Shown piece by piece: positions 11,028 through 46,697 of a stretch of DNA of 64,000 nt. Position 1 is the first letter of the stretch, and every line of letters begins with the position of its first letter. The stretch spans positions 186,001-250,000 of the forward strand of contig OZ025653.1 in assembly GCA_964019335.1 (NCBI GenBank), written 5' to 3'. Source of the stretch: Diplonema japonicum. Its lineage: Eukaryota > Protista > Euglenozoa: Diplonemea. The notes beneath the pieces were generated by a model. The model saw nothing but the letters and a program-made list of their open reading frames with translations, ran no database searches and was not told the origin of the DNA. The position numbers and the translations under genes are program-made.

Positions 11028-11147
11028 ATCCTGTATTGGCTGGGGAGCAAGAAGCAGTTGCAATCTGACACATAACTGAGTAGGAACAGAAAAAAAGGAA
11101 AGAAACCAAAGCGGAAGCTTTGTGTAAACTCATGGACGAAACGGACA

Positions 11148-14100: not shown

Positions 14101-17100
14101 GCAGTGGTCCACTTCTGAAGCGAAATTAAATCTTCCGCAAAGCCCAACCCAGGTGTGCGTTCCACAAGGGCAGTGACTATCACTGTAAGGTTTGAGGTGG
14201 CCACGTAGTAAGGTGGGACGTCTTCGGCAACCCAGCAAGACACAGACGCTTCGCCTGGCGACTTGTATGTTACCTGAACGTAATGTGCGTGTTTCTGCCC
14301 CCTTTCATCACCCGCTGTGAAGGGTAGCAGGTGCGACGTGTCCAGCTCCACTACGCCTGCGGGGCTCACCTGGCATGCCACAGGCACCTCCACATCACCT
14401 GTGGTGTTCCACAGATCGTATTCCAAATAGAATTCAATGGCAACCCTCTCGTGCTTGCGGACTGTGACCGACTCTGTCGTCGCCTTGAGGTGTGCATCGA
14501 AGTACACCGCTGCGTCCACAACCCCACCACCCCATGTCCCAAGGTGAATGTACTGAACATGTGGCTTTGACGTGACAGGATACTGCAAAACTATATTCTC
14601 ACCATACACCTGCCCAGACCCCAGCTTCAAAGTCCTATCTGAGAACATCACCCATAGCCAAGCAGGTGATGCTGCTGCGATGAGATCCGTTTCGTGCGCC
14701 GCAATAACTGCACCGCACATCCCACGCGTCAGCTGTGTTTGCTGGATGCCCCTTACCCGCCTGTCAATGGTGAATGTGTAGGCCTCTCCATCTGAGCACT
14801 TTGACACTGACGGCTGCGCGGACAGCACGACGTGTACGTCAGCATCGCCCCTCACGAGCAGCATGAATCCGTTGGCGTCTCGCCCGATTGACTTTGTACA
14901 CGTGTACAAAGGCTGGGTAGTGGGGTTGTGCATTCCTTTGCAGTTTCCTGGTCTGAACACTGGGATTAAGGCAGTCTGCGTCAATCCAACGAGTTCGGGA
15001 ACGGGGTCAGCTTTACATGTAACTTCAACAGTCGTCCCTACATCTTTGGAAGGTGTCACGGTTACCTCTTTTGTTCCAAATGGAGCAGTTTCCCCAAAAA
15101 TCCATCCATATCCCTGGCGGCTGGAGGCATCGTGTACCAAGGTTACATATCTGCTCCCTTTTGAATCTCGAAACACTTCATTGTCAGCTTGGAAAAGCAC
15201 ACCGCCACCCATGCCCCTGCCGATCTGTAGAGTCTCAGCAGTCCACTGAACCCAAACCGAACGGATTATGCTCTTGCTGGCTTCAGGCTGGTCGATCCAA
15301 GGTTGCTCCCATCCGCCAGGAGTCGCACCTGTGGTGACCACAACACTGTATAATGTGCCTTGGCCCGGTGCTGGGCTGCACCCCGTACCGACTCCGGTAT
15401 GCAGTCTGCAAGTCCGCGAGACTGTGTCAACTGAGAACATGCTGCAGCTCTTGAGCTCGTAGCACAGCTTCTTGCAGCGTGCAACGCTGGAAAGCAACCG
15501 TGTTACGTAGCTTCTAGTGCAGGCAGTGTTTGGCTTGACACTGTAATCGACCCCATCCTGCGCAAAGCCCAAAACAGCGCCGTGATGCAGTTCAAAAAGC
15601 ACCCCAGGAGAGAGGTCTGTCAGATCTGTACCCTGCAGAGCTGTGCTGTATACACGCAAGTCGTAGTAGTACCCTACGTCAAGTGCATCGTTACTCGAGT
15701 CATGTGCATTGGCACCCAACCTGAGGGGGGAAGGGTCGAACAAGGTAGGAGGGTCCTGAGGGGTGAAGTCGATGAGGAGCACTGCGTCAACGTATAAGTG
15801 GAGCCCACCATCCCTGCGCACCAAGACGTAGTGGTGCCAGTACGAGAAGAAGTTGTACTCGACAGCCACTGTACGGTAACTACTGGGTGACGTCCACAGC
15901 TCCAGGGACGTCCCGTCTGAACCTATCCTCACCCCAACCCCTGTTTCGCTCGACCCTTTTAGCACTTTGTGCATTATGAACCCAGTTGTACGATTGCCTT
16001 TCTCAAACGTGGAAAAGTAAAACCCCACAGTAAAATCCTCGTACAGCCCAGGGTGGAAGGAGCGGTGAATATCAATCACCCTGCCAGTGCCCACCTGGAA
16101 TGCCACTAGATTCTGTTCCGGCAATAATCTACACGTACCAGTTCCTCCAAGCTTAACATCGAAACCATTCGCCCAGCTGTGCACGGTAGAGTACCCGCAG
16201 TCAGCTTTTGCAATAGGAACCCGCGGAGCTGCAATCTTGAAGAGCAGTCGTTGCAAGGTGATGTTGAAGCTATGGTGGTAACCGTCGCAGTCCGTGTTCT
16301 CGAGAGACATCTGAAAGCGTAGAGAGCTTGATGTTAGTCTCTTCAAATCAAGCGCAAAAATTGTATCAGCCTGCACTGACAAAGGCAGCTTCCTGTACCC
16401 ATCAGGGCCTCCTGTTACAGTTATCGTGGAACAGTCCAAAATCTGCCTCGACGCCTGTGTTACGTAAGAGAGAAAGAGTGTGCCGTATGATGAGGCAACA
16501 TCTGGGCAGTAGAATCCAAGCCCAGTGTCGTGGTCGTGAAGCGAGTAGCTTTGGCTGCCACCGGATGGTTCTGCCTGACGCAGCAGCATGTCGTACGCAA
16601 TATGTAAGCGTATTGAATGCACCTCACTTGTAGGCACATATTCTGAACACGTTGCTAAGATACCCAACACCATCATGTCCATCGATGCAACTACTTCACG
16701 AAGCATGCCACTGATATCCACAACCTCTTCGGTTACTGTGAGTCGTGTAACTATCTTGTCTTCCAGATCCAGTAGATACACTTCGACGTCACCGCAGCCC
16801 CACAACCTCAGCTCTTTTGGTACCTGAAGCCACGCCAAACCTGCATCCTGATGCACCCTGTCGCCAACACCAAATGTGCTCTTCAAGCTCACCTGCGCAG
16901 ACAATGATGGCCAGTCGGACACCTCAGCCACAGCAAAGCGTGAGAATTGCTGAATACCCACTACAGTGATATTCCCACGTGGGCTCATGACTAAAGAAGG
17001 CTGCGGCCACCGTGTCGAGTTCCCAGATGCTATTCTCAAGGTGCTGTTAGACACATCACAATCGGTGGTTAGGCTAATATTCAGGATCGGGCCTTTCACC

Positions 17101-20100
17101 CACAAGATAGAGCTGACATCTGCAACGATTACATCCCCTGTGGCTATCTTGCCAGGGCTGATGGTCAAGGCTGAGTTTGGTCCGGTGATGACGAGGTTGC
17201 AGGCACCCGTACGGAATAAGAACGGTGAGGAGACAATTGTGAATCGAAGCAATGCATCACCGAGTTCGGCTGCTGAAGGCAAAAACACGTCACGGGTGTC
17301 GAACGTCAGCTTTGCAGGCAGGCCTATGGTTTCGCCACCGTAGTTCCTGTTCATCGTCACAGTGCGAATGTCCTGCGTGGCGTTGGAAGTTGTGTTGTGG
17401 TACATGCAGTGCGTGGAGTACAGCGTGCAGTTTCCTGTGCTCACATCCCACTCCACACTTTTGCACCACTTGTAACTCTCGCAAGATGCCTGACAGGAAG
17501 CATAGTCCGACGCGGCACTGGAGCGCTCAGGTGTTCTAGATGTGCTGCATGGAGACGACAGGGCCTGCTGCCAGCATGTGTCACACGACGCCATGCTGAT
17601 GCCAAGCAAACTTTCACACTTCGTGATAATTGACAACTTAGGGTTTGACACTGATGTGGCTTCCCTGGAACCAAAGAGTAGCAAGGGTGCTGTGCAGTTG
17701 CGATTCGCATTTGACTCGTATTTCAGAAGCAAGTTGGGGCTGGCTTTCAGAACAGATGTGACATCAATTGTCAGAGCATTATCACTTGCGAGAACAGACG
17801 CATAGATCTTTCGCTGCACAGTGTACAACACCGAGGTCCGGTTGGCATACACTATGTCTTCATCAAAGTCGCTCACGGCGCTCACCTCCCACATGAGCTG
17901 GTCAGTGCCGCAGCCTCTGTCTGCCATCACTATTAACTCATAGTCGCTAATATCTCTTGTGAAGACCTTCACATCGTCGATAGAACCCGCAAACACCAGA
18001 GCAGTGCTGTTAACACAACCCACTCTGAGCACGGCTGTATCATCCAGTCTGAACGAGCTGATGGCAAGGCTCTTGGATGCCATCTTTGCACCGTTGTGGT
18101 AGAGAGACAGATCGGTGTACAGCGTATGTTTGCATGCCACATGTTGCCAGAGGTTGTTTGCGATTGTGTATGTACCGTTCCCCGCGGCAGTCTTCACAGT
18201 GTACGTGGCTGTGGGCGATTGCAACTCACACACCAACTCTCCGTCCTGTAAATATAACGAAATGGTCCCAGAAATAGTCACAATATGGCCTTCCCCTGCT
18301 GTTGGGTTGATCCACGCTGCAACGGCGAGTGACGTATCAGACGTACTGAGGAACGTGTTGGCCAGCGGCCCACGAAAACCAGAGCACTGGTCGTCTGCTA
18401 GTAACAGAGCACCTTGGCCAACTGCGCCAGGTGAGTTGAACCAAGAACCTATCTCAAGGGAACCATCACCGGTATTGCCTGTAGCGTCTTCTGGAGAGAA
18501 ATCAAAAGTGTACCAGAGCGCCAGGCCTGTAGATGCTCGGTACAAGGTTAGATATGCGCTGCTGATGTCGTCAGCACCCACACCTTGGGCTTCTAGATCG
18601 AACCCAACATACATAGCACCTTTACCTGCATGTAGCTCTAGGGTTGTATTTGTGCCATGACCAACATCGGGTTCGTATTCAGTAACGAAACTGTCCTTTG
18701 CAGCTGACAGCTCTATACTACCACACGTCCCTTTGATGTTCGCTGCCCCCTTGACGTAGGTATCAATGTGTTGCGAGGCAGGATCCCCGCCAGTTGGGGA
18801 TCTCGGCGTGCCATCGGAAAACAACCTGCACGTGTACGGAGTTGTTGTCGGGTTGGCCGACCTGCTCGTGGCATATTCTATGGCATTGCACCCAGAAAGG
18901 GCAGTGCAATACTCCTTACAAGTCTCGACACTCAAACCGGAGTACTCCCCGATCGAGCTCTGCCCAGCACCAGACAATGTAGATGCCTGGAACCTGTAGT
19001 ACGAAGACACAAGACCACCAGGTGCCACTGTCTCAGTCACCTCAAGGCCTTCTCGGTAGACACCGTGGACGCCCCCGTGTGGCAGGTCAGCTGCAATCAC
19101 TCGCAAGTCCTTGATGCTGCCATCTATGGTGTGCGATACTTCGTTCCCTTGGACACGGGCTCCAAGTACAAAGCGGGATGCCAGCCCAGCAGGTGCAGCA
19201 CAGCACCCATACCCACTGCGAGTGCCATCGACGTAGAAAACTACAGCACCGTCTTCATCCACTGTAGCAGCAACATGGTGCCATCCTCCCTCGCATGCCA
19301 GGGACTCGTTTCCATCGATTGTTGTTGAAGCCGACCCGTTCACCACCTCCCAACGTGGCTTCCCGTCGCTGGTGAGGGACAGCCCACTGCTGTACGTTTC
19401 TGATGTGTTGCCGAAGACTACGACTGAACTCCACATCGCCAGCGGCGCACCGTTGGTCGTCTTGTTACATGCATCCCCATTAAGGTTCACCCATGCAGTG
19501 ATAGTGAGGGGCAGGGGGGTTTCAAAAGGCCCTGTAGCCAGCGAACCGCCGTCAAATGTGCACCCAGTGCTGTTCGAGACGGCGACAGTTCCGTTACCGG
19601 GAGTGAAGTCTACATCTGCTACAAGGCAGTCAACTGCGTATGAAGAACCGTTTTGGCCAGCATCGGGGGACACCTGCCATTCGCACCTCGAACTCTCTGG
19701 CAAATATTGTACTGCATGACAGGCTGAAGGCCACGTGTCACACAACTCCATGCATTCCCTACGTGTCAGGTCCGTCCTGCCATACCCCGAGCCGCTGCTG
19801 TCCGGCCATGTGTAAACACCACTTCCCGTGCAGTATTGCATACTCAATACCTCCCATGGCCTTCCTGGAAAGGCATTAAAAGCACCCCCTAGTAGCCCGT
19901 AGTTGTCGGTGGCTGTAGTGTGGAACGTATCAGCAACGCACCACTTTCCCATCACCCCAGAACCTGCAGTCTCGGTTAGTGTTGCAGACTGGCCGTAAAC
20001 CTCGAATTCCTGCAACCCAATACCTGCCTGAGCGCAGCAGATATTCGTCGTGCATGGCCCGCCACAGTCCTCAATGGGAGTCTCTTTTTTGTTAAATCCA

Positions 20101-23100
20101 TCGTGGCAGATATAGGTGCTGCAGTTCGAGGTATAAATAGTAGGTGGCACGCTGTGAGTGGTGAGAACGCGATAGGTCAGAGTTGATGTCTGTCGGGGTG
20201 TAAAACTAAGCTGTTCCCAGTCAGCGCGGTATGGTGCCGGTGTGTAGGGGGATGCAGGCGAGAGTGTACTTTGTTCGCAACTTAGGTCATCGAAACAAAT
20301 CCTAATCTCTCGTGCGCTAGCGGCACCATATCTTCGCTGCGCAAACCTCACCCTACTCAGCAAGTAGACATTTGGGAACGTTATCGTAATCCAAGCACCC
20401 GCCTCCTCAGAATCTGTAACCCACTCTCCCATGCCAGATGCAACACGGACCCCATCGAAGGCACCGTAGCAGGTGCTGTTCCCCACAGAAGATGACGCTG
20501 CGCAGGACGTGACTGATGGCACGGGAAGCCGCTTCTGGATGGGCTGGTTTAGCTTTGCGAGTGGTCGTAGATAGCACTGCTTGCCATGTGTCGAGCGGCC
20601 TGTAGTGCCCAGGGCCTCAAGTAGTCTACACCCACTTTGTGAGTATTCAAATCCGAGACATTCTGAAATCTCATTGCACGCGACTGTGCAAGAGGCAACA
20701 GTCACGCTGGTAGACACAACACTACCAGGGCCGTCACACCCCCACTCAGCAATGTGCATGTATTCCGTACATGATACACCTGTAAGCGAAGGTGCCGTAG
20801 AGGCACCATAAGCCTGCATTTGATAAATGCCTTGCGTGTCAGACAGCGCACCATTACTGAAGGCGAATATCGCTTCTGGGACATAAGGCGGTCGTATGAA
20901 AGCACACCGCATACGGTTTATAAGCACATCGGGAGGCAGTGCTGCGTACCATGCTGCGATATTGTCAACTACCGCGGTGTGTACAGATGAACCATCGCCG
21001 ATATATAAAGTGCTGCCACTAAGTGCGCCTGTGATGTGCTCTGTGTTGGCAGATGCAGCTCTCTCACCATTCGTATACAAAAACAATTTCTTTTGATCAG
21101 CATCGAGCACGCACGCAACATGGTACCACATCCCAGGGTCGATCTGCTCACGTCCAGAGGCCATCACGGTCCACCCTGCGGAATCTGTGATGTTCGTGTA
21201 CAGGGTTCTATTTGTCCTGAGGTACAGCCCAAGACCCAGCCCAGACTCTTTGTTCGTTGACACTAGAGCCAGGCTGTTCTCTGGTGTTGTAACGCTACGT
21301 GCAAACTGACCACAATTCGTGTAGTCGTATTCATGCGGCACCACTGACCCGTTCCCCGTCACGCACTGCATCGAGTCTGCCAGAAGCAGCCACCCGAAGC
21401 CATCCCCAGCAACCCATTCCAGCACAGCACAAGATCCAGGCAAACAAAGTCCATCAAGTTCCAGTGTGAACTTGCCCTCAGATAACACTATGTGCGACCA
21501 TGTCTGGTTGCACGCACCAGGGCCGGGCTGTAAGCACTCCCCAGTTGTGATGTCTTGCAAAGTCCACTTGTTGGGATACGGCAACGGCAGCACCCAGACG
21601 TCTATTGTAAAACCTTTCAACAAGTCTGGGGCAGTTCCAGAGCGTGAGGCCGCCGCATACGCACCCCCACCTATTCGAAGAGCGCCGTTCCACGTATTAG
21701 GTGCCTCTGGAAGGTGATAGCCAGAGACAGCAGGAGAGGAGTCAGGCTCTAGCGTCGCTGTGGCGGTGGGGGAAGTTGCGTTGCTGCTGTAATCGCCAGT
21801 GGTGCATTCCCGCAACACACCTTTATGCACTCTGCACCCATCCCAGTGCGGGTACGACACGAAGCCACAACCAGTGGTGTTGAGGCATAGGTCCATGCAT
21901 TCCTCTATCCTTCCCATTACTGTTATGTAGTCATCAGAGCACTTCGCTCCTGTCCTCTTCTCCCATTTGACACCCGTGGTGCTCAGCTCGTAAGTGCCAT
22001 TCGTTCCTATCGACAGCCTCATAAACCTCTTGTCCTTGCCTTTGTAGATATCAGGTTCACTAGTGAACTCTTCGGAACTAAACAGAAGAGATGCCTGTGA
22101 TCCGGATACTGCTGCAGTAAAGTAAGAAGACTGAATAGGGAGCCAGGTCATTTCCTCGTAAGCAGAGGGGCGCGGCAGGAGGTTTCCAGCTGCAAAAGCA
22201 AACAGATCCGAAGGAGTCTCTGGAGTTTTCACAGTGATCTTCCACAGGTAGGTTTCGCAGTCTTGTGGCATAAATTCATCAGCTGAGGGAAACCCCAAGC
22301 ACGTGTCCATCCATGTTGATGCCGTGCAAACAGAGCTGCTGACATCATCGGCGATGCCCTGTACCTCTCCATCATAGCATCCCAGCCACGTGTTGGTGTT
22401 GGTATCGGACGGAGCGTACTGCACAGCTACAGAGTCGCTCAGTTCGATGGGTTGCCCTCTTGCCTTGCCTTCTGCCCATATGCGCAATACTGTGGCATTC
22501 AAGCACCCATCCGCCTCCGACGAAGTGCACGCGAAGCCACCCGTGCACCGTTCTGTTGGCGTATCACATGACACAGTAGTGTTGCTTCCCATCTCCTTTA
22601 GCACTATGCCGTCTCCAGATCGGAGATAATCCTTGCGAAGAGAATAGGGCAGTGGGTCGTCGGGCGGGCTGAACCCGTACAACACGAATGTGGATGTACG
22701 GCAGGCGTCCCATTCCCCTGGTTCGAAGGACTCTCCAGCACAGCCTGCCATCGTGCAGCCCTTACGACCTTCACAGGTAAACCACCTGCTTCCTTTGTAG
22801 ATCTTCTGCTCGCCCGTGTAGCGCAGGGACACTGTGTTGCCTGACGTTAGAAGAGCGATCGCTGGCTGTTCATCAAGAACACCGGCATAGTGCAAAATAT
22901 TTGGTTCAAGCACCGCATCTGGGCTGCTGCACACAATCCTTGTGTCGTGCATGGAGCGTCCTTTGAGACCAACGGTGATTGTTGAGGTGGACGTAAGGCT
23001 CACAGGTTGGGAAGTGATAGTCAGTTGAGAGAGATGCGCGTGCACTTCCGTAGGTACCTCCACAGTCAAAGGGAACCTGATTGCAAAAGCATCAGGGTGT

Positions 23101-24380
23101 AGGGACCAGATGCTGGACTTCACGGAATCTGGGTACCGCCCATTCCTACACTTCACAACTGCTGTGTACGCAGTAAACTGCTTAGAAAGACGTGTGACGG
23201 CGTACCACATCACAGTGGCGTTCGAAAATTCCAAAGGGGAGGGATGGAGAAGGCTGAGCCTGTTTCCGCTTGGGAGGATTTCGCAGTGTAGCTGGTGTGT
23301 GAAAGATATATCAAGCGGTGCTGTGACCTGCACGCCAAAACCAACAACAGCACGATCCTCACCGAGCACAAGGGACGTGAGGGAGTCCCCGCTGGCGTCC
23401 ACAAACCGCATCACACCACCAGGCTTTTTCACAACTGTTCCACTTACGGTGTGTGTGGTACCGAAGATGCTGCAAGTCACGTTTTCACTACCGCCACCTT
23501 CGCCATACCAACTCAAGTATATCCTCTGCGGCAGAGCATATGTCCCCTCGGTGAATAGTAAGGTCTTCGGGACGAAGAGTGAAGCAGGCGTACACCCAAC
23601 CACGACTGAACCGTCAGGGGGCGATATCAGCCTTATTTCAAGAAATGCATTCTTTTGAAAAGGATGTACATAAACAATATTCTCCGTAAGAACGATGCCT
23701 TGTTCTGGAAAGTCGTATGCTTTAACATACACAGACACAGATGTAGGTGCGCCGAGCGCTTCGCAGTGCACACGGGCCTCGCCTGGACGGGACCAGCCGA
23801 TGGAGAGCATCGCGGGGTATGACGAGGAGTGGTTGGCAGGGATGAGGACGTCTGTTGGAAGCGGTGTGAAACAAGTATCTTTCGCACAACACAGCCATCG
23901 GTACGATTCAGTGTGGTCGAGGTAAGATGCAGACCACAAGGCCTCCGCGGACTGCATTGTGCTGCATGTTCTCGAGGTGCCAATGTTGACTACACTACCG
24001 CTGTAGGTCGAGACAAGGCTCTCTGCAGTATCGGGATCACCCTTAGAGGGTTTGCCGTCAGGGCAAACTTCCATCTCCTTACAGAGCCGCATTCCTCGCC
24101 GCTTGCACAGACCAGCGGCATATGACACAGGCAACGATACATTTGCATACCCGCTCCGAACCCACGTTAGCGTGCTCTTTTCACAGTAGCTCCCCGCAGG
24201 ACCTTTCCTTCGCACCACTACCGCGCTGCTATCAGCCCTGCACCTCATCAACACCGCATCTTGAACCCGACCTGCTGCTCGTAGCTCTTTCGACACTGTT
24301 TCATACGGTCTCAACGTGAGATCGCCGCTTTGCTCGAATAGCACGCTGTGTGCGATGAAGAGGACAAGCCATGCCTGCAT
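11148..24380 (-). CDS. Giant (~4410 aa) secreted multidomain lectin/adhesion-like protein
   Basis: Single uninterrupted ORF; signal peptide MQAWLVLFIAHSVLF; no C-terminal TM. Recognisable modules: PAN/apple units (e.g. ECMDLCLNTTGCGFVSY, SCQASCESYKWCKSVEW), several LamG/ConA units (WYHVAC, WHHVAA, WQHVAC, WHHYVL), an F5/8C-like unit (AFDG...W....GAWITI), a DNRLRE-like unit (AAKDSFV..EPD..HG), FAMeT-like units, Kelch repeats and a terminal laminin-type EGF (CGLRGQC...CSCSP..EG.DCEKC). Confidence 0.88.
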   Translation of the reverse strand: MQAWLVLFIAHSVLFEQSGDLTLRPYETVSKELRAAGRVQDAVLMRCRADSSAVVVRRKGPAGSYCEKSTLTWVRSGYANVSLPVSYAAGLCKRRGMRLCKEMEVCPDGKPSKGDPDTAESLVSTYSGSVVNIGTSRTCSTMQSAEALWSASYLDHTESYRWLCCAKDTCFTPLPTDVLIPANHSSSYPAMLSIGWSRPGEARVHCEALGAPTSVSVYVKAYDFPEQGIVLTENIVYVHPFQKNAFLEIRLISPPDGSVVVGCTPASLFVPKTLLFTEGTYALPQRIYLSWYGEGGGSENVTCSIFGTTHTVSGTVVKKPGGVMRFVDASGDSLTSLVLGEDRAVVGFGVQVTAPLDISFTHQLHCEILPSGNRLSLLHPSPLEFSNATVMWYAVTRLSKQFTAYTAVVKCRNGRYPDSVKSSIWSLHPDAFAIRFPLTVEVPTEVHAHLSQLTITSQPVSLTSTSTITVGLKGRSMHDTRIVCSSPDAVLEPNILHYAGVLDEQPAIALLTSGNTVSLRYTGEQKIYKGSRWFTCEGRKGCTMAGCAGESFEPGEWDACRTSTFVLYGFSPPDDPLPYSLRKDYLRSGDGIVLKEMGSNTTVSCDTPTERCTGGFACTSSEADGCLNATVLRIWAEGKARGQPIELSDSVAVQYAPSDTNTNTWLGCYDGEVQGIADDVSSSVCTASTWMDTCLGFPSADEFMPQDCETYLWKITVKTPETPSDLFAFAAGNLLPRPSAYEEMTWLPIQSSYFTAAVSGSQASLLFSSEEFTSEPDIYKGKDKRFMRLSIGTNGTYELSTTGVKWEKRTGAKCSDDYITVMGRIEECMDLCLNTTGCGFVSYPHWDGCRVHKGVLRECTTGDYSSNATSPTATATLEPDSSPAVSGYHLPEAPNTWNGALRIGGGAYAAASRSGTAPDLLKGFTIDVWVLPLPYPNKWTLQDITTGECLQPGPGACNQTWSHIVLSEGKFTLELDGLCLPGSCAVLEWVAGDGFGWLLLADSMQCVTGNGSVVPHEYDYTNCGQFARSVTTPENSLALVSTNKESGLGLGLYLRTNRTLYTNITDSAGWTVMASGREQIDPGMWYHVACVLDADQKKLFLYTNGERAASANTEHITGALSGSTLYIGDGSSVHTAVVDNIAAWYAALPPDVLINRMRCAFIRPPYVPEAIFAFSNGALSDTQGIYQMQAYGASTAPSLTGVSCTEYMHIAEWGCDGPGSVVSTSVTVASCTVACNEISECLGFEYSQSGCRLLEALGTTGRSTHGKQCYLRPLAKLNQPIQKRLPVPSVTSCAASSSVGNSTCYGAFDGVRVASGMGEWVTDSEEAGAWITITFPNVYLLSRVRFAQRRYGAASAREIRICFDDLSCEQSTLSPASPYTPAPYRADWEQLSFTPRQTSTLTYRVLTTHSVPPTIYTSNCSTYICHDGFNKKETPIEDCGGPCTTNICCAQAGIGLQEFEVYGQSATLTETAGSGVMGKWCVADTFHTTATDNYGLLGGAFNAFPGRPWEVLSMQYCTGSGVYTWPDSSGSGYGRTDLTRRECMELCDTWPSACHAVQYLPESSRCEWQVSPDAGQNGSSYAVDCLVADVDFTPGNGTVAVSNSTGCTFDGGSLATGPFETPLPLTITAWVNLNGDACNKTTNGAPLAMWSSVVVFGNTSETYSSGLSLTSDGKPRWEVVNGSASTTIDGNESLACEGGWHHVAATVDEDGAVVFYVDGTRSGYGCCAAPAGLASRFVLGARVQGNEVSHTIDGSIKDLRVIAADLPHGGVHGVYREGLEVTETVAPGGLVSSYYRFQASTLSGAGQSSIGEYSGLSVETCKEYCTALSGCNAIEYATSRSANPTTTPYTCRLFSDGTPRSPTGGDPASQHIDTYVKGAANIKGTCGSIELSAAKDSFVTEYEPDVGHGTNTTLELHAGKGAMYVGFDLEAQGVGADDISSAYLTLYRASTGLALWYTFDFSPEDATGNTGDGSLEIGSWFNSPGAVGQGALLLADDQCSGFRGPLANTFLSTSDTSLAVAAWINPTAGEGHIVTISGTISLYLQDGELVCELQSPTATYTVKTAAGNGTYTIANNLWQHVACKHTLYTDLSLYHNGAKMASKSLAISSFRLDDTAVLRVGCVNSTALVFAGSIDDVKVFTRDISDYELIVMADRGCGTDQLMWEVSAVSDFDEDIVYANRTSVLYTVQRKIYASVLASDNALTIDVTSVLKASPNLLLKYESNANRNCTAPLLLFGSREATSVSNPKLSIITKCESLLGISMASCDTCWQQALSSPCSTSRTPERSSAASDYASCQASCESYKWCKSVEWDVSTGNCTLYSTHCMYHNTTSNATQDIRTVTMNRNYGGETIGLPAKLTFDTRDVFLPSAAELGDALLRFTIVSSPFLFRTGACNLVITGPNSALTISPGKIATGDVIVADVSSILWVKGPILNISLTTDCDVSNSTLRIASGNSTRWPQPSLVMSPRGNITVVGIQQFSRFAVAEVSDWPSLSAQVSLKSTFGVGDRVHQDAGLAWLQVPKELRLWGCGDVEVYLLDLEDKIVTRLTVTEEVVDISGMLREVVASMDMMVLGILATCSEYVPTSEVHSIRLHIAYDMLLRQAEPSGGSQSYSLHDHDTGLGFYCPDVASSYGTLFLSYVTQASRQILDCSTITVTGGPDGYRKLPLSVQADTIFALDLKRLTSSSLRFQMSLENTDCDGYHHSFNITLQRLLFKIAAPRVPIAKADCGYSTVHSWANGFDVKLGGTGTCRLLPEQNLVAFQVGTGRVIDIHRSFHPGLYEDFTVGFYFSTFEKGNRTTGFIMHKVLKGSSETGVGVRIGSDGTSLELWTSPSSYRTVAVEYNFFSYWHHYVLVRRDGGLHLYVDAVLLIDFTPQDPPTLFDPSPLRLGANAHDSSNDALDVGYYYDLRVYSTALQGTDLTDLSPGVLFELHHGAVLGFAQDGVDYSVKPNTACTRSYVTRLLSSVARCKKLCYELKSCSMFSVDTVSRTCRLHTGVGTGCSPAPGQGTLYSVVVTTGATPGGWEQPWIDQPEASKSIIRSVWVQWTAETLQIGRGMGGGVLFQADNEVFRDSKGSRYVTLVHDASSRQGYGWIFGETAPFGTKEVTVTPSKDVGTTVEVTCKADPVPELVGLTQTALIPVFRPGNCKGMHNPTTQPLYTCTKSIGRDANGFMLLVRGDADVHVVLSAQPSVSKCSDGEAYTFTIDRRVRGIQQTQLTRGMCGAVIAAHETDLIAAASPAWLWVMFSDRTLKLGSGQVYGENIVLQYPVTSKPHVQYIHLGTWGGGVVDAAVYFDAHLKATTESVTVRKHERVAIEFYLEYDLWNTTGDVEVPVACQVSPAGVVELDTSHLLPFTAGDERGQKHAHYVQVTYKSPGEASVSCWVAEDVPPYYVATSNLTVIVTALVERTPGLGFAEDLISLQKWTTAYAHLHLGSLKTPMFYGTLLHVAKPTVIPDLISEWVVANTTLAPNGSLPTWSEERCSMLFDVHQGFAVKAPSSMNDLTFAVTFLPTACDVTSSYAHECCPIVATPWTQTPKTAIAVTLAMCGDSTLRFGVLTPAGYVEAATTVNSTQWTDILAVKDSVTATLSLYVNRRLVAVSSSGGNITVRPHIADDGVAGGLIVGGGCFWKLYKGVFGACDTILNTNATSLQNCVDIAAAFGGDTTSYSEVYDGSVNCVVQNCTTLQRKVFPQFQYAPGNTTAQLASCSLGTFTGYIRRVRVWGRPTGYGEAFPVQSLPLETSTGTSSTADFTSACKQLVGDHERLEGAVPDYEPDDVITVKCTSMNTDVVRLATGFQVFEIPHGAYGEAVAIPLEYEGPGRARVRCIVDSLRLNMTGIVVTDPQRAELTVVSSATPGWTHLPDLPVGAPYGCSVVVDNMLYVFAGNTIMAYKDNKWVGIAGSGLQFDGCSCIPRDTSVLVYGCLHGIVLSFDTTTATWTQKLGFPAFEGFQEGTPVLRGQGAVVFDTTLKTWVPEWRGEFVSLRFDTRTKQRLRQPSNMMEPLTGTPLLGVLGDVLYVLSDTAQASKPNKSSWSDNSDLYATSQDLWWGQRVMGAYTMNLCGSLVLLGGLEGYKNVISSSVLQVMTYNSATGKTAGDATKLPNLRYSVMGGMATVHSGKLYHIGGIMKEKKCMFTNSTQGVFGCDHGLGDATGFAGSLVAGMMGLPTFSTFSIGLANSMCSDTAVPSSNNRFGWNGCNGALRVQVGLSTVKVLQLSGSSENTLATATYTSISSSRQFRYVWVKWTTVDGSWTIDVGRGVTVGKHRMVTAVGSSVYLQTAAYMYTLNGTDVSGLEVHSIIPGHGSGNVQTLTHLNQFSNTACGLRGQCVPHTATCSCSPYAEGTDCEKCTFDHTGPLCSQYIHCSALHPHQPHLAEYCSAWRARGCRSVVFDAQYHLTHVNESIRRFVLNT

Positions 24381-24486
24381 CCTATGGTACTTTAAGAATA
24401 ACAATTGAAGAAATTAAAAAAAGAAGAACAAGAAGAATACAAAAATTCCCGCCGTATGCAAGGCGTCTATTGTTTGCTATAGAATG

Positions 24487-25569
24487 CTATACAACACAAG
24501 GTTCATAAGTCAAGCAATCAAGAAGCTCTGGAGAAGCAGACGGAGGGCACCGCCTGATAGGGGAGCCACTAATGCTCCTAGGGTAGCCATGCTGCTTCAG
24601 CACTTCATCCGTGGTGGGTGTGTAGCTGGTAGCATCCTGTGGGATGTATCGTTTCTGGAAATGTACGGAATCATCGGGCTCAGAGGATCTCTCTAAGTTT
24701 GTACGGTTCACCCTGCGCATTGGCGGTTCTTCTTTATCCAGCTCATCAACAGGCCCATGGACGTGTGCCCGTGTCCGCACGTAAGGGGCGACCATATCAT
24801 CACCTGCAACAAGCCGTTGAGTTAGCTCGCCGCTGTGGTATCCCTGAGGGATCTGCCTCCTGCCAGGAACCTCCTTCTCTATGTTGCTTAGCGGGATGTT
24901 CTTTCTGGTTTCGTAGTATTGTGTGAATCTGCGTTTTCCAGGTGACCGGAGCCTTGCTGAGATTAACTTGACGCGTCCGTGTGTGACCGACAAGGGGCTA
25001 CTTGGGGTTGGGGGCGAATGAGTGGACCCCCAATCTAAGGTTTCTAGAAGCTCAGGCGATGCTTCTTGGGGGTATCGTCTCAAAGACGACGAGGTGACAG
25101 ACGAGGAACGTCCCCTTTGACACATGAGCTCCTGCGAAGTAGGTGTGTAAGAGAGCTCGGAATGGCTAAGCCTGCTCCTCGGCGGCGTTTCGTGCATGGA
25201 AGGGGTGTACGTTGTCGCCTCGTTCCCGCCGTGTCTCTTAGGAGGGTCTTGTACAGGCAGGACTGGGTGCCGCACAGGCTGAGACCTCAACATGTAACCA
25301 ACAGATGACGTGTTGGCCATGGTAAGTGTGAAGCTGCTGCCAGCATCCCGCACAGCCCTGGACAGTTCCCTCACGCTTGTTACCCTGTCTCCGTTTACTT
25401 CTTGAATTGTCATTCCCTTGCATATCCCTGCAGTCCAAGCAGGACTTCCATGCTCTACCTGCTGAACCACCATGTTCCTCACTTCCGCACCTAAAGGCTG
25501 ACGATGACCTCTCGTCACTTCCAACACAGCAACACCGTCGTTTCTACCAGAGTGCCTAACGGACGGCAT
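24487..25569 (-). CDS. PDZ domain protein with disordered Ser/Pro-rich C-terminus
   Basis: N-terminal PLGAEVRNMVVQQVEHGSPAWTAGICKGMTIQEVNGDRV is a typical PDZ pattern. Confidence 0.8.
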   Translation of the reverse strand: MPSVRHSGRNDGVAVLEVTRGHRQPLGAEVRNMVVQQVEHGSPAWTAGICKGMTIQEVNGDRVTSVRELSRAVRDAGSSFTLTMANTSSVGYMLRSQPVRHPVLPVQDPPKRHGGNEATTYTPSMHETPPRSRLSHSELSYTPTSQELMCQRGRSSSVTSSSLRRYPQEASPELLETLDWGSTHSPPTPSSPLSVTHGRVKLISARLRSPGKRRFTQYYETRKNIPLSNIEKEVPGRRQIPQGYHSGELTQRLVAGDDMVAPYVRTRAHVHGPVDELDKEEPPMRRVNRTNLERSSEPDDSVHFQKRYIPQDATSYTPTTDEVLKQHGYPRSISGSPIRRCPPSASPELLDCLTYEPCVV

Positions 25570-26351: not shown

Positions 26352-27808
26352 CTACTTCTTCTTGGCGATAACCTTCTCGGTGGTCTTGGTGACCTTGCCA
26401 AGCATGACAACACCGTTACCCTCCATGATGGCAACACGGGAGAGACCCTCGCAGTTCTTGAAGGTGTCCACGACAAGGGGCTGCTGGGGGGCGAAGACGA
26501 CCTCAGCCATCTCGTTGGCCTTCAGGCAGTGGGGCTCCTCAGCCTTCTTACCGCCGGTCTCCTTACCCATCTTCCACACCAGCTGGGTCATCCTCACGGC
26601 AGACCTACCGGTCCTCACGAAGCACACGGGGGTGTACCCGACCTTGAGCTCACCGGGGTGGTCCAAGATCTGCACCTGGGCGTTGAAGGTACCGGCCTCC
26701 TTCAGGGACGCGTCCTTCTTGTAGATCATCACGTCACCGGTCCTGGGCATGTTGTCCTTGTTAAGACCCTTCACGTTGAGACCCACGTTGTCACCGGCCT
26801 TGGCGTCCTCACACCTCTTGTGGTGCATCTCGCAGGTGAACACCTTACCCACGCACGCGTTGGCGGCGGTGTGGGTGGGGAGGAAGAGCACTTCCTCACC
26901 GGGCTTCACGATACCCTGCTCCACACGGCCAGTGATCACGTCACCAACACCCTTGATCTGTAGTGTGTAAGTTAGTGTTTTCATGTAAGAAATGAACATA
27001 CCTTGTACACACCCGAGACGGGCATCCTCATGGGAGCGTCGTTCTTCCTCTCAGGCATCCTCACCATCTTGTCAAGGGCGTCCACAAGGGTGTCGATGTG
27101 GAGCTTCTCGTCAGCGCCAACGAGGACGTCCTGGCCCTTCCACCAGTCCATCTTGGAGGACTTCTTGAGAAGGTTGTCACCGATCCAACCCGAGATGGGG
27201 AGGACGGGGACGTTCTTCTCGACGAAGTCCTTCTTCCAACCGGTCTTCACCAACATGCTCTTCATCTCCTCCTTGATCTCGTTGTACCTCTCCTCCTTGT
27301 ACTGGGCGACGTCGCAGTCCATCTTGTTGATACCAACGATGAGCTGCTTCACACCGAGCAGGTTGATAAGACGGGCGTGCTGCCTGGTCTGGCCCTGGAT
27401 CTCACCGGCCTTGTGGTTGCCCCTGGCGATGGCGGACACGAAGTTACCGTCAGCGGGGATCATGAGAAGGGCGACGTCGGCCTGCGAGGCACCGGTGATC
27501 ATGTTCTTGATGAAATCCCTGTGCCCGGGGGCGTCGATCACGGTGTAGTGCCACTTCTCCGTGAAGAACTCCTTGGTGGTGCAGGCGATGGTCACACCAC
27601 GCTCACGCTCCTCCTTCTGCCTGTCCATGTAGAAGGCGAAGGCGAAGGACTGCTTACCAAGACGCTCGGCCTCAGCCTTCAACTTCTCCATCTCACGCTC
27701 GGGGATTCCACCGAGCTCGAAGAGGAGACGCCCAGTGGTGGTGGACTTCCCGGAGTCGACGTGACCGCAGATCACGATCGACAAATGCTGCTTACCGTCA
27801 GTGGCCAT
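26352..27808 (-). CDS. EFL: Elongation factor-like GTPase EFL (470 aa, 2 exons)
   Basis: GHVDSGKST, DAPGHRDF and NKMD GTPase motifs, plus EFL-type sequences FAFAFYMDRQKEERERGVTI and GNHKAGEIQGQTRQHARLINLLG. 44-nt intron 26958-27001 (GTATGT...CACTAAC...TACAG). Strong C/G-ending codon bias. Confidence 0.95.
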
Positions 27809-27828
27809 TTTGATAGACAAATAACAAT

Positions 27829-27967
27829 CTGTAGGTTTTTCGAATCGCAAGAACACCTAAAGGGGGGGGGGAATAAAATTACTAACGGGCAGAGGCGTGC
27901 GAACTAAGCTATTATCTTTCTTTAAGTATCCAAAAAAAAAAGGGGGCCTCCTTTTAGTAACTCTTAC
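27829..27967 (-). other. Probable 5'-UTR intron of EFL
   Basis: GTAAGA donor at 27967 and CCTACAG acceptor at 27829, 20 nt upstream of the ATG. The AG could alternatively be the trans-splice acceptor. Confidence 0.4.
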
Positions 27968-28418: not shown

Positions 28419-31400
28419 CTAAGGAAGGTAGCTTCCATAGTCGTTCTGCGACTGGGTCTGCGAGTAGGTCTGAGCCGACAACGACATCTGAGAGATGGGA
28501 CCGTCTTGCGACTGCGAGATGTTAGGGTACCCCATCTTCTTCCTGTTGCCAGGAAGGTATTCGTCCTGCTGGTTGGAGCGTGCAGTCCTATACGCAGCCA
28601 TCTGCTGGGCGGGGGCTGTGCCCGGCTGGTACACAAAATTCCCAGCATGGGGGTGATGTGTCACATTCTTGTCTTGGACATAAGCCGTGTTGTGTGCCGG
28701 CGCCGAGTACTGTTGCCCAGCGTACATCGGAGGGGCCTGCACTTGCTCTGCAAACTGCGTCGTCAACATGGGCCCCGCAATGCCGTAGTCACCACCGTAC
28801 TTGTTGATAAACTTCCTCGGTTTGGACAGCGATACAAGCGACTGTTTCAGCCCCGTCAATGGACCTTCTACAACAAGCTGCTGCTCTTTAAAATGCACCA
28901 ACAGGTTGTTCCACAGCTGCTGCTTTGACAGCACTTTTGCATTCCCAATCACCACAAGGCCCGACCTTGCCCTCGTCAGTGCCACGTTCAGCCTCCTCGG
29001 GTCGTTCAAGAAACCAATACCCTGGTAGTCGTTGGATCTCACACAGGAAAGGATTATGAACTCCTTCTCTCTCCCCTGGAAGGAGTCTACGCTAGCCACT
29101 TCGATGGAGCTGTAGGCTTCGTTGCGAAGGGGCCCATTCCTAGACATGTAATTCGTGACGTAGCTGCGCTGCCCCTCGTAAGGAGTGATGACACCTATCT
29201 TGTCCGGTGTGACGTTGGCCTGCAGCAGAGCCGTGACGACCTTCTCAACCATGGCAGCCTCCGTTCTGTTCAGGAATGACGTGCTACTGGACGACATTTC
29301 CTCTTGCCCGATGGAGTTGTAGAAGAACATGGGCCGCGAAGGGTCCTGTAGTGCTTTACATGCGAAGACTGCATACCGGCCACGGGAAGTCAATGTTGTT
29401 CGCACGGTCGATCTGCGTAACACCGTTCTGCAGGGTGCCCTCATAAAAGGTGTTGCTGTGAGTGGTGTGGTTAACGATGCTGGCATACCTTGGGAACTCA
29501 CTGAGGCAGGGGTGCATCCTGTACTGCACCTGAAGTCTGATAGGCCTGATACCCAACATGACCAGCCTCTCGAATAGTGAACGTGCCAACCCTGCCTTAG
29601 CTGCCTGCTTGCACATGATTACGGGGCCCAGCTGGCAGTGATCACCAACAAGGACAACCTGCTTAGCACCCAGTACAAGCGGGATGAGGCACTCGGGCTC
29701 GGTCGCTTGTGTAGACTCGTCAACAAGAACCTGCTTGAAGCGCATTCTCGACAGCCTGGAGTCGCCTGAGTTCACTGTCGTGCTGCAAATCACGTCAGCA
29801 GCCGACAAAATCTCATTCTCAATGGCACGCTTGCAGCTGATGTACCTCTTCTCATCTCCCTGCGACAGCTCGCCCACTTCTTCCTTAAGCTTGTAGAGCT
29901 TGCGGATTTCAGAAGACTCAGGAGCACCTGACGCAATCAATTGCATCTGCGTTTTATGTATTTACCAAGATTGCACATACCTGGTGGTGCAGAGTCAGAT
30001 GGTCAACACTGGAGTTTTCACTCTCCCTGCTCCTTGCACACACTCTGACAACCTTCAGTCCGGTGGCGTGGATTTTCTCAGTCAAGTGGTCAACAGCGAC
30101 GTTAGAAGGGGCGCAGGCTAAAATCTGGCCTTGGCTCATCTTTGCTAGGTGGTACACAATGGTTGCCGAGGTGACCGTTTTCCCCGTACCGGGAGGGCCT
30201 TGAATCAGGGATAGGGGCTTCTGAAGTACATTCTTAACGGCAGAGACCTGAGAGTGGTTGAGCTCTGGCAAGCCTTGAACAGAGAAACGCTTGGGCAGGT
30301 TGCCCTTGATGTTCTGTGCCTCGACAGCATGACCAAGCAGTCTGTGGTACAGGAAGGCGCTCACGCTAGTCTCATCTGTTGCGAACGTGCGCAGAGCAGT
30401 CTGCATGCGTTCATATGAAGTCGGCTTCCAAGAGAACTCGATCACCCAGTTCGATGTCATATGTGTGGGCACACCGGAGGTGCGCATCTCGACAGCGACC
30501 CCCTCCCCTGTTGAGATTTTTTGTATTGTTGCGCTCCGGATCCGCTAAATGACCTATCAGAAAAAAGCAAAAAAATTTCCAATTGCTTTTTCTAGGGCTG
30601 GAATAGATTTATTTGCGTCCGGGGCCCAATGCAACAATTGGAATTTATTTTTGTGCCAAAATCGTTTTTGGTGATTTGCCTGACTTTGTACTTTGTTGTT
30701 TTTCCTCCTCTGAAGTGGCTTTATTTTGCAAAGGCGGGATTCGAACCTGCTGAGAAAAAACAACTGCGTTTAGGTACCCACGACCCTGTCCTTCGCCGTC
30801 TGCGACATTTCTTCATTCTTACACTCACTACCCGTTGTCGTTTCTGAAGAAGTAGAAGAAGAATGACTTTGGTTGCTTCGTAAACCTCCTGGCGCAAAAA
30901 TGGCCAAAACCCAAAATGTCTTCCGACAAGATACATAACCACAAAATATTCTTTTTTGGAAAATCTTTTGGAACTCCCTCGGAACTCACCGTTCTTTCAT
31001 GTGCGACACATGGATTTTCTGGAAAAATCTTTTCAGTGAACTTTTGGACACTTTTGATTTTTCGTTGTGTAGCCGCACCCCCCCCAAGGGAAACCACTAG
31101 AAACAAGGCACTTAGCGGATCCAGAACGTTACCATTGCTAACCATACCTGAGATGCCGCTACCCAGCCTCGCAACATGCCCGTACCCCCTCCATGGACCC
31201 CCAATGCTGCCGTCACCGGCATGCTTCAAAATCAGCTCATCACCTGCCACGATCCTCAAGTCGGACTCGTCGCGAGGGAAGTCGAAATACGCCACTTTGC
31301 GTTTGTTCAGCCCTGTCTCCCACTGGATCTGGATCTTCTCCTGCGAGTGCTGCTCTTTGCGCCTGCGGTCATCGTCTGTCTCGAGCTTCACGAGAGGCCC

Positions 31401-32257
31401 CAAGATGTTCTGGTAGTGGTATGCATCTTCATAGTAAAACTGCACGGGAGCAGGCTCGTCGTTCACAGCACCTGCTGTACTTGATATTCATGTCGTGGCA
31501 TACCTTGTGTCTCCAGGTCGACCAGACCCGCATTTGGGTTGACCTTCCACAGTTCTTCCATCTTTGACATCTCTGCTGTACTGATCTGTCGCACCTTACG
31601 CTGCTCGGCTTCAGACGGAGACTTGACCAACCACGACAAGAAGCGTTTATCGTCAATCAGGGGCATCCACTGCGACACGTCCCAGTCCATATCCTGAAGC
31701 TGGTTGGAGTAGAGGCAAGGCTCGCGGCAGAGGAGTACAACGACTGACTCAGACTTGGCGGGGATGAAACCGAGGAGGAAGACGTTTTTGGAGCCGCAGT
31801 TGTAGCATTCGAGGGTGGCGTCGCCGAGGGGGCTCTCAGGGTGGAGTGAAACCTCTTTGTGCTTGGACTTCACAAGGTGGAAGATGATGTGGGACACAGA
31901 GGTCTGGCCACGCCCGTTGCAGAACCATTTCTTGGTGGCGTTACACTTCGCAACGCAAGCAGGGTCGCTGATGCCACAGTAAGTGCACGCCCACTCAGGG
32001 GGCTCCTCGGGGTGCTCATCTTCGTATTCCACTTCGTCATCGAAAGTCATCTTCGGATCCCGCTGCTGAGTCGACAACAGTGTTGCATGGCTCTCCGACA
32101 CCTCCGTGTAGCTGAACTCCGCACCCCTCCCCTTGTCTCCCATGTCAAACCCACCGTCCATCCCCTGACTTGCACCATGATGCGGGTCTAGGAACGCAAA
32201 CTCCCTACTCACATCCGCCACACCTTCATCGTCTCCTTGTGAGTCAAGGAAATCCAT
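28419..32257 (-). CDS. UPF1: Nonsense-mediated decay RNA helicase UPF1 (~1022 aa, 6 exons)
   Basis: CH domain (ACTYCGI..P.CV..C...KWFCNG; [18 protein letters not shown]), [52 protein letters not shown] and an SQ-rich tail. Introns 31472-31503, 30508-31147, 29947-29980, 29456-29488, 29346-29376; exon sum 3069 nt. Confidence 0.96.
30532..31128. mobile_element. Inverted-repeat-bounded ~600-bp insert (MITE-like) inside UPF1 intron 2
   Basis: Arm 30532-30555 (cgctccggatccgctaaatgacct) is the near reverse complement of arm 31106-31128, with an 11-bp perfect core GGATCCGCTAA. The interior lacks the long homopolymers typical of the large spacers. No clear TSD and no transposase ORF. Confidence 0.5.
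30727..30797 (-). other. tRNA-like relic / Pol III B-box
   Basis: GCAGGTTCGAATCCCGC T-arm with canonical GGTTCGAATCC, and a 6-bp acceptor-like pairing GCGAAG/CTTTGC at tRNA-like spacing. The D arm is weak and there is no valid anticodon arm, so this is not a functional tRNA. Confidence 0.35.

Positions 32258-46640: not shown

Positions 46641-46697
<57 letters not shown>

What the first reader, a model, noticed from the sequence alone, without database searches (positions are those of the whole stretch)
30508..31147. The only long intron is clamped by an RNA helix that restores mini-intron length
Seen: on the transcribed strand the 5' arm CGUUCUGGAUCCGCUAAGUG pairs with the 3' arm CAUUUAGCGGAUCCGGAGCG for 20 contiguous pairs. 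All three non-Watson-Crick positions are G.U wobbles on this strand and would be A.C mismatches on the other. Only 19 nt (donor side) plus 24 nt (acceptor side), about 43 nt, lie outside the helix, which is within the 29-46 nt range of most other introns here. Established: euglenid non-conventional introns use end-pairing stems. Inference: a spliceosome tuned to ~35-nt introns may tolerate large insertions only if they loop out, giving a GT-AG 'stem-shortened' intron class, possibly born from a TIR element.
Basis: partly seen in the sequence, partly recalled or inferred. Interest (0 to 1): 0.8.

Follow-up and report, generated by a model that had tools for sequence, protein, structure and literature searches.

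The report
Transposon-like insert inside a tiny intron
A 640-base intron in the UPF1 gene of a marine Diplonema flagellate is spliced at the proposed sites and is likely an ordinary tiny intron with a repeat element inserted into it, whose matching ends are predicted to pair and would hide the insert from the splicing machinery, an arrangement already described for long introns of Giardia, Trichomonas and yeast.

Summary
The GT-AG intron 31147-30508 of UPF1 is skipped in transcript-type contigs of 3 of 4 runs. A 20-bp helix with three G.U pairs leaves 19+24 nt outside; 0 of 150 shuffles reach 20 bp. New here: the interior is patched with a dispersed high-copy genomic repeat, and contigs of other loci share each arm and stop matching at or near its outer end. 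So the arms behave like the ends of an inserted non-coding element, which by itself explains why a mini-intron length is left over. No clean target-site duplication or empty site was found. That the helix is needed is not shown. For it: all 16 internal YAG acceptors lie inside the clamp, while 7 of 8 confirmed short introns use the first YAG beyond nt 25. Against a strict length rule: a transcript-confirmed 79-nt intron has no predicted structure, and relatives splice kilobase introns. Stem-shortened long introns are published for diplomonads and Trichomonas (PMC6679479) and yeast (PMC12350175), so this is no new intron class. Look-ups of earlier scan notes found no report of this element.

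The parts
31148..31471 (-). UPF1 exon upstream of the long intron (1B domain)
   Evidence: translation; Pfam PF18141 E 6e-16; contigs
30508..31147 (-). 640-nt GT-AG phase-1 intron, 42% G+C
   Evidence: joint skipping 640 nt in X8, X9, X12; ends; G+C
31129..31147 (-). donor-side tail, 19 nt, GTATG donor as in the sibling UPF1 introns; likely remnant of the host mini-intron
   Evidence: at single-copy depth
31109..31128 (-). 5' arm of the helix; likely left terminal inverted repeat
   Evidence: contigs X4 record 24 and X5 record 32 match 31055-31122 and then depart; only the two arms match the arm pattern in the window
31055..31108 (-). low-copy segment shared with the loci that also carry the 5' arm
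   Evidence: tables 2, 4, 8
30966..31027 (.). high-copy repeat module
   Evidence: summed depth 3748 against 17 for the flanks in X1
30861..30894 (.). high-copy repeat module, next to an A-rich run in other copies and a pyrimidine tract plus CAG (30844) here
   Evidence: summed depth 3038 against 17 in X1; loose ends; cryptic acceptor picked by my gene finder
30727..30803 (-). single-copy segment ending in a T-arm / B-box-like motif (GGTTCGAATCC); possibly a decayed tRNA piece (likeness judged by eye from recalled consensus)
   Evidence: sequence; no gene at default ARAGORN threshold, no Rfam match, only implausible pseudogene calls at relaxed thresholds; depth 17 in X1
30632..30692 (.). diverged medium-copy module resembling about 31000-31075; forms a local hairpin with the next module
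   Evidence: 7 of 2000 shuffles reach the alignment score; fold
30569..30631 (.). high-copy repeat module, joined directly to 30966-31028 in other copies
   Evidence: summed depth 3128 against 17 in X1; 9 of 12 listed joints
30552..30568 (.). linker, about 12 nt shorter than in other copies
   Evidence: 12 gaps in X1 record 2; loose-end consensus at 30569
30532..30551 (-). 3' arm of the helix; likely right terminal inverted repeat
   Evidence: X1 record 2, X4 record 18, X5 record 25 match 30531-30600 with 4 other letters and no further out
30508..30531 (-). acceptor-side tail, 24 nt, A-rich and ending in CAG like the short introns
29981..30507 (-). UPF1 exon downstream of the long intron (helicase start)

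Best explanation
The 640-nt UPF1 intron is spliced at its GT-AG ends and is likely an ordinary 35-43-nt intron into which a non-coding repeat element with 20-nt terminal inverted repeats inserted; the two repeats are predicted to pair in the pre-mRNA and would loop the insert out. Shown: the splice sites, the complementarity, the repeat nature of the interior, and arms shared with other loci. Inferred: that the arms are the element's ends, that the U2 spliceosome does the work, and that the helix forms in the cell. Also inferred: that it helps mainly by hiding 16 internal YAG acceptors, so that the first accessible CAG after the donor is the correct one. On this reading the helix is why the insertion was tolerated in an essential gene, not a purpose-built device.
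For: Spliced joint in 3 of 4 runs. Helix beyond shuffles and stable in the ensemble. In DNA-type runs 73 (X1), 436 (X4) and 246 (X5) contigs lay on 851 nt; four interior modules have summed depth 616-3748 against 17 in X1, and the listed variant contigs have about single-copy depth (5-23 in X1), as dispersed nuclear copies would. 9 of 12 listed joints link the module at 30593-30631 straight to 30966-31028, so shorter family members exist. A 593-nt contig matches through the 3' arm to 30531 and no further; a 296-nt contig matches the 5' side to 31122, one base before the first position where the two window arms differ. The tails outside the arms look like the short introns (GTATG, A-rich, CAG) and match the D. 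japonicum description in PMC12621601. All 16 internal YAGs (11 CAG, 5 TAG; intron positions 51-603) lie within the helix span, and use of any would reach a stop within 8-89 codons. 7 of 8 confirmed short or mid introns use the first YAG beyond nt 25; the eighth uses the second of two tandem CAGs. The confirmed 79-nt intron needs no stem and has no internal YAG.
Against: No clean target-site duplication: the best is 5 of 9 identities, which random 9-mers of short introns reach 7.6% of the time, and I scanned 33 length and boundary combinations. No empty-site allele among the 12 listed joints. The arms show only about 1.5-4 extra single-copy equivalents of depth (my arithmetic), and none for the 5' arm in X1, against over 100-fold for the interior. 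The tool warns that summed depth is no copy number. I saw only 30 letters of the other copies' flanks, so whether most copies carry the arms is open. The G.U bias is weak evidence of selection: 1/8 if all three changes are transitions, and about 0.3 if the A.C pair just outside the helix is counted (arithmetic). C-to-T change on the non-template strand would give the same bias without selection (recalled). No orthologous intron was obtained, so no covariation test was possible. One intron is one case.
Confidence: 0.45

Rival explanations
1. Same origin, but the helix is a by-product with no effect: the diplonemid spliceosome finds the right acceptor of a 640-nt intron without it.
For: D. papillatum introns have a median below 1 kb, reach 72 kb and often hold transposons (PMC10161547). 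L. lanifica and R. humris medians are 107 and 74 nt (PMC12621601). The unstructured 79-nt intron is spliced. The arms differ at 3 of 20 positions, about what two copies each 6-14% from their relatives would show. Folding is not strand-specific.
Against: 16 internal YAGs, one behind a strong pyrimidine tract, must be skipped in a genome window where the first eligible YAG is almost always used. All three changes keep pairing on the transcribed strand.
Confidence: 0.3
2. The whole intron, splice sites included, is the mobile unit (an introner), and other copies are introns too.
For: Repeat interior with inverted ends. Introners are common in aquatic protists (PMC11282704, passages). Exon and intron both end in ATCTCA..CAG, and 4 letters fit either side of the joint.
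Against: Homology with other loci stops at the arms; the 19- and 24-nt tails stay at single-copy depth. No second copy among the window's other introns.
Confidence: 0.1
3. The intron hosts a structured non-coding RNA whose closing stem is the helix.
For: Fold z -3.5; a B-box-like motif; intron-matching contigs are deeper than the UPF1 exons in transcript-type runs (126 vs 30 in X8, 315 vs 21 in X9).
Against: No Rfam family at gathering score, best E 2.2. No tRNA. The extra depth comes with variant contigs and internal joints, as from other repeat copies. The opposite strand folds almost as well.
Confidence: 0.08
4. The interior is a piece of the repetitive constant region of mitochondrial chromosomes inserted in the nucleus (NUMT).
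For: Diplonemid mtDNA is very high-copy with repetitive constant regions (PMC7049700, passages). About 20% of D. papillatum NUMTs lie in introns and UTRs (PMC10161547 section). The depth ratio differs between runs.
Against: Many distinct variant contigs at nuclear single-copy depth with long differing flanks, patchy 30-60-nt modules, and inverted ends shared with other low-copy loci.
Confidence: 0.07

Closest known systems
Long cis-spliced introns of Giardia lamblia, Spironucleus spp. and Trichomonas vaginalis with internal stems (PMC6679479; passages seen)
   Same: Uniformly short introns, with the few long ones predicted to fold so that donor-acceptor single-stranded distance falls to 35-45 nt (25-44 nt in Trichomonas); canonical ends; prediction only.
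   Different: Different supergroup (recalled). The loop here is about 560 nt and made of a dispersed repeat, the arms are shared with other loci, and the passages seen name no mobile-element origin for those stems.
Zipper stems of Saccharomyces cerevisiae introns, e.g. RPS17B (PMC12350175; passages seen)
   Same: A helix between donor and branch point shortens a long intron; shown in vivo by probing and needed for efficient splicing in RPS17B.
   Different: Yeast needs a 42-85-nt linker from donor to branch point and 20 nt between stem and branch point. Here only 43 nt remain to the acceptor itself. No probing or mutant data here.
MITE-type non-autonomous DNA elements and introners (PMC11282704; passages seen)
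   Same: Short, non-coding, A+T-rich, repeated, bounded by inverted repeats.
   Different: No clean target-site duplication; the inverted repeats sit 19 and 24 nt inside the splice sites and do not supply them; no superfamily could be assigned.
Euglenid nonconventional and intermediate introns, and hemistasiid noncanonical introns (PMC4770533 passages; PMC12621601 parts 1-4 of 8)
   Same: Euglenozoan intron with end-proximal pairing; a MITE origin has been proposed for those too.
   Different: Those pair the last few nucleotides (+4..+6 with -8..-6, mostly CAG/CTG) and mostly lack GT-AG. Here both ends are canonical and largely free, and the helix starts at +20 / -25.

Membership tests
U2-type spliceosomal intron | GT-AG ends with lineage consensus, removed from mRNA | tested here: met
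   GTATG...CAG; joint in X8, X9, X12; consensus as in PMC12621601
U2-type spliceosomal intron | lariat formation at a branch point | not testable with these tools
   only assembled contigs were available
Stem-shortened long intron (diplomonad/parabasalid type) | predicted stem leaves a single-stranded distance equal to the short-intron length | tested here: met
   43 nt outside the 20-bp helix, 35 nt in the constrained fold; short introns 29-46 nt
Stem-shortened long intron (diplomonad/parabasalid type) | holds for long introns of the genome generally | tested here: inconclusive
   no genome held. In the window: 640 nt stem, 62 nt (predicted only) stem, 79 nt (confirmed) none
Stem-shortened long intron (diplomonad/parabasalid type) | stem needed for splicing, or compensatory changes in orthologues | not testable with these tools
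   no orthologous intron found: 19 metagenome UPF1 loci, best segments 55-86% identical, none matching the intron DNA
MITE | terminal inverted repeats that bound the repeated unit | tested here: inconclusive
   arms shared with a few other loci whose match ends at or 6 nt short of the arm ends; flanks of most copies not visible
MITE | many dispersed copies | tested here: met
   met for interior modules: over 100-fold summed depth, variant contigs at single-copy depth; not a copy number
MITE | short and non-coding | tested here: met
   597 nt; six-frame translation shows only short open frames; the 105-aa frame tested has no Pfam match
MITE | target-site duplication | tested here: not met
   best 5 of 9 identities, 7.6% by chance; could have decayed in an old copy
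MITE | autonomous partner with the same ends | not testable with these tools
   no genome held; the arm pattern gave one lone match each in viral and prokaryote collections, without an inverted partner within 1.5 kb
Introner | repeat homology reaches the splice sites | tested here: not met
   tails outside the arms are at single-copy depth
Euglenid nonconventional / intermediate intron | pairing of +4..+6 with -8..-6 (CAG/CTG) in a terminal helix | tested here: not met
   +4..+6 is TGG and -8..-6 is CTC; the last 15 nt are unpaired in the fold
Known structured RNA or tRNA gene | match to a covariance model or tRNA finder | tested here: not met

The most novel reading that the evidence does not exclude
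In this mini-intron genome a family of non-autonomous inverted-repeat elements can sit inside tiny introns of essential genes because its ends pair in the pre-mRNA and make the insert invisible to a first-AG-scanning spliceosome. After the element dies, selection keeps the pairing, so transposon ends become permanent splicing aids. That would give a concrete mutational origin for stem-shortened introns and a genome-wide test: long introns with internal AGs have stems, long introns without them do not.
Probability: 0.3. Interest if true: 0.55.

Novelty: new member of a known kind. Interest (0 to 1): 0.32.

Why it matters
If the helix is needed, it extends structure-assisted splicing of long introns to canonical introns of diplonemids. 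The diplonemid intron survey I read (PMC12621601, parts 1-4 of 8) measured pairing only over the 9 terminal nucleotides and would not have seen a helix starting at +20. It would also tie that structure to an insertion event, which shows how intron-size constraints and mobile DNA coexist. As a single locus without functional or comparative data it is a good example, not a new mechanism.

Tried and rejected
Genome-wide test: no assembly is held for this window. Second copy in the window: none by BLAST or pattern. The repeat finder on the whole window was swamped by poly-A/T runs. tRNA or Rfam RNA: none; relaxed ARAGORN gave only implausible pseudogene calls. Repeat module in JGI metagenomes: 0 matches. 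UPF1 relatives in metagenomes: 19 loci, none with DNA similar to the intron; of the five best, three (L001, L002, L004) are uninterrupted at this position and two give no clear answer. Arm pattern in viral and prokaryote collections: one lone match each, taken as chance. Target-site duplication: not significant. First gene finder was too strict. The second predicted 31 introns: 4 equal read-supported ones, 2 are wrong variants of read-supported ones, 17 were carried into, and 8 were dropped by eye as joining separate genes or lying at gene ends. Of the 17, 24637-24666 is contradicted, and 11065-11166 and 1123-1265 (GTTTG donors) are doubtful and not used as evidence. A protein search to confirm the 62-nt intron found nothing. 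No RNA holder was listed as such; X8, X9 and X12 are treated as transcript-type only because their contigs skip introns. Holes in X5 and X11 cover are not used as evidence. Supplements of PMC12621601 could not be read and may hold intron-length data that bear on this; a search of 7 supplementary files of PMC10161547 for MITE, inverted repeat, MULE, intron length, intron size and hairpin gave no hit. Literature searches for a prior report of this element or of inverted-repeat looping in diplonemid canonical introns listed none; the library lacks most subscription papers. Earlier scan notes: nothing by sequence or near this place.

Full report
Setting. The window is gene-dense eukaryotic DNA with its genes on the minus strand. 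The closest named relative of a window protein is a Diplonema papillatum protein at 57% identity, and a transcriptome-derived protein is 100% identical. Introns start GTATG and end in an A-rich tract plus CAG, as described for D. japonicum with a median of 41 nt (PMC12621601, parts 1-4 of 8 read). Loose ends at the 5' end of the elongation-factor gene resemble the diplonemid spliced leader (recalled). Earlier scan notes also call this genome a Diplonema. I take it as a Diplonema species; the species is not established.

The intron is real. The exons encode UPF1. Contigs of X8, X9 and X12 skip exactly 640 nt at 30508-31147; X11 has no such joint (15 of 26 joints shown). The other UPF1 introns are 31, 33, 34 and 32 nt, and the elongation-factor intron is 44 nt. 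X1 and X4 carry the intron unspliced with no differences, and X5 does so where it has cover.

The helix is real as complementarity. It has 20 contiguous pairs with 3 G.U, at -34.0 kcal/mol against -22.1 for the other strand. 0 of 150 shuffles reach 20 pairs and 0 of 2000 reach the end-duplex energy. Against uniqueness, 35 of 3168 sliding windows have an end duplex as strong. The pairs are near-certain in the ensemble, with or without exon flanks. Outside lie 19+24 nt, or 35 nt if a few weak outer pairs form. The unconstrained fold pairs the donor weakly, at a gain of only 1 kcal/mol.

What the interior is. On 851 nt around the intron, 73, 436, 246 and 50 contigs of X1, X4, X5 and X11 were laid. 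In X1 the exons and several intron parts have depth 17, while four modules reach 3128 (30574-30602), 616 (30661-30689), 3038 (30864-30892) and 3748 (30980-31008). X4 and X5 show the same profile. Summed contig depth is no copy number, but the listed variant contigs each have about single-copy depth, which points to many dispersed nuclear copies. Nine of 12 listed joints connect 30593-30631 directly to 30966-31028, so other members are 340-420 nt shorter and this copy is a composite. One module resembles another part of the intron (7 of 2000 shuffles). The loose-end consensus before 30569 begins with GACC, which aligns with the inner end of the 3' arm, so the family reaches at least to that arm. 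A 593-nt contig (X1 record 2; equivalents in X4 and X5) matches 30531-30600 with 4 other letters and goes no further out. A 296-nt contig (X4 record 24; equivalent in X5, none in X1) matches 31055-31122 and has 62 further letters that do not fit. The tails outside the arms stay single-copy. The arms therefore behave as ends of a repeated element and the tails as host intron. What is missing: a clean target-site duplication, an empty site, a view of most copies' ends, and any autonomous partner. I call it MITE-like, not a MITE.

How it likely works. Insertion of an inverted-repeat element into a 35-43-nt intron gives this anatomy automatically. Whether the helix matters is the open point. For: 7 of 8 confirmed short or mid introns use the first YAG beyond nt 25, and the eighth uses the second of a tandem pair. 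The long intron has 16 internal YAGs, all inside the clamp, each leading to a stop within 89 codons. A predicted but unconfirmed 62-nt intron also folds into a stem. Against: the 79-nt intron 46641-46719 is confirmed, since removing it and two short introns gives exactly the transcriptome protein P0003, and it has no predicted structure. Length alone therefore does not demand a stem up to 79 nt; that intron has no internal YAG, which fits acceptor masking better than length measuring. Relatives splice long GT-AG introns routinely (PMC10161547; PMC12621601). The 3-of-3 G.U bias is weak (1/8 given transitions; about 0.3 with the adjacent A.C pair; arithmetic), and strand-biased C-to-T mutation could produce it (recalled). 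No orthologue could be fetched for covariation.

Comparison with what is known. Long introns folding down to the 35-45-nt length of short ones are described for Giardia, Spironucleus and Trichomonas (PMC6679479, passages; PMC10711314, passages). Zipper stems are shown in vivo in yeast (PMC12350175, passages). Euglenid and hemistasiid noncanonical introns pair their very ends and differ in the defining positions (PMC4770533, passages; PMC12621601). Introners carry homology to the splice sites (PMC11282704, passages), which is not seen here. D. papillatum introns often hold transposons, and its genome has MULE, TATE and Helitron genes and intronic NUMTs (PMC10161547, passages and one section). 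A mitochondrial origin of the modules is unlikely but untested (PMC7049700, passages). My searches listed no report of this element or of such stems in canonical diplonemid introns.

Verdict. It works like a stem-shortened intron and is a new member of that known kind, with evidence of origin from a repeat insertion as the added value. Function is untested and rests on one locus. Interest 0.32. The bolder reading, inverted-repeat elements made invisible to splicing and later kept as splicing aids, has about 0.3 probability and would merit about 0.55.

Noticed in passing
window 30828-31147 (-): If the intron is retained, the UPF1 frame stays open for 106 codons into it (39 of 3000 shuffles do as well); no Pfam match. 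A retained form would carry a premature stop in the mRNA of the decay helicase itself, a possible feedback; no evidence of retention was seen.
   Followed up: partly
window 46641-46719 (-): 79-nt intron made mostly of a CA repeat, with no predicted structure and no internal YAG, in a gamma-tubulin complex gene; confirmed by identity with transcriptome protein P0003.
   Followed up: yes
window 3992-4053 (-): Predicted 62-nt intron whose U-rich and A-rich halves form an 18-bp hairpin (-11.5 kcal/mol) leaving 21 nt; not confirmed.
   Followed up: partly
window 31472-31503 (-): UPF1 intron ends in tandem CAGCAG; contigs of all four runs use the distal one (32 nt, not 29).
   Followed up: yes
window 30727-30803 (-): Single-copy segment with a T-arm / B-box-like motif and a possible decayed acceptor stem; below tRNA and Rfam thresholds. 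Earlier notes describe tRNA-targeting retrotransposons in this genome.
   Followed up: partly
window 26352-27808 (-): Elongation-factor gene that looks like EF-like rather than EF-1alpha (label recalled), with many near-identical variants and very deep cover in transcript-type runs, and spliced-leader-like loose ends at 27808-27829.
   Followed up: no
window 11151-24413 (-): A 4421-codon open frame with no contig cover over 17000-23973 in the four runs laid; not annotated here.
   Followed up: no
window 31148-31154 and 30508-30517 (-): The upstream exon ends ATCTCAG and the intron ends ATCTCAACAG; a 6-nt repeat that may be chance or a trace of how the host intron arose.
   Followed up: no
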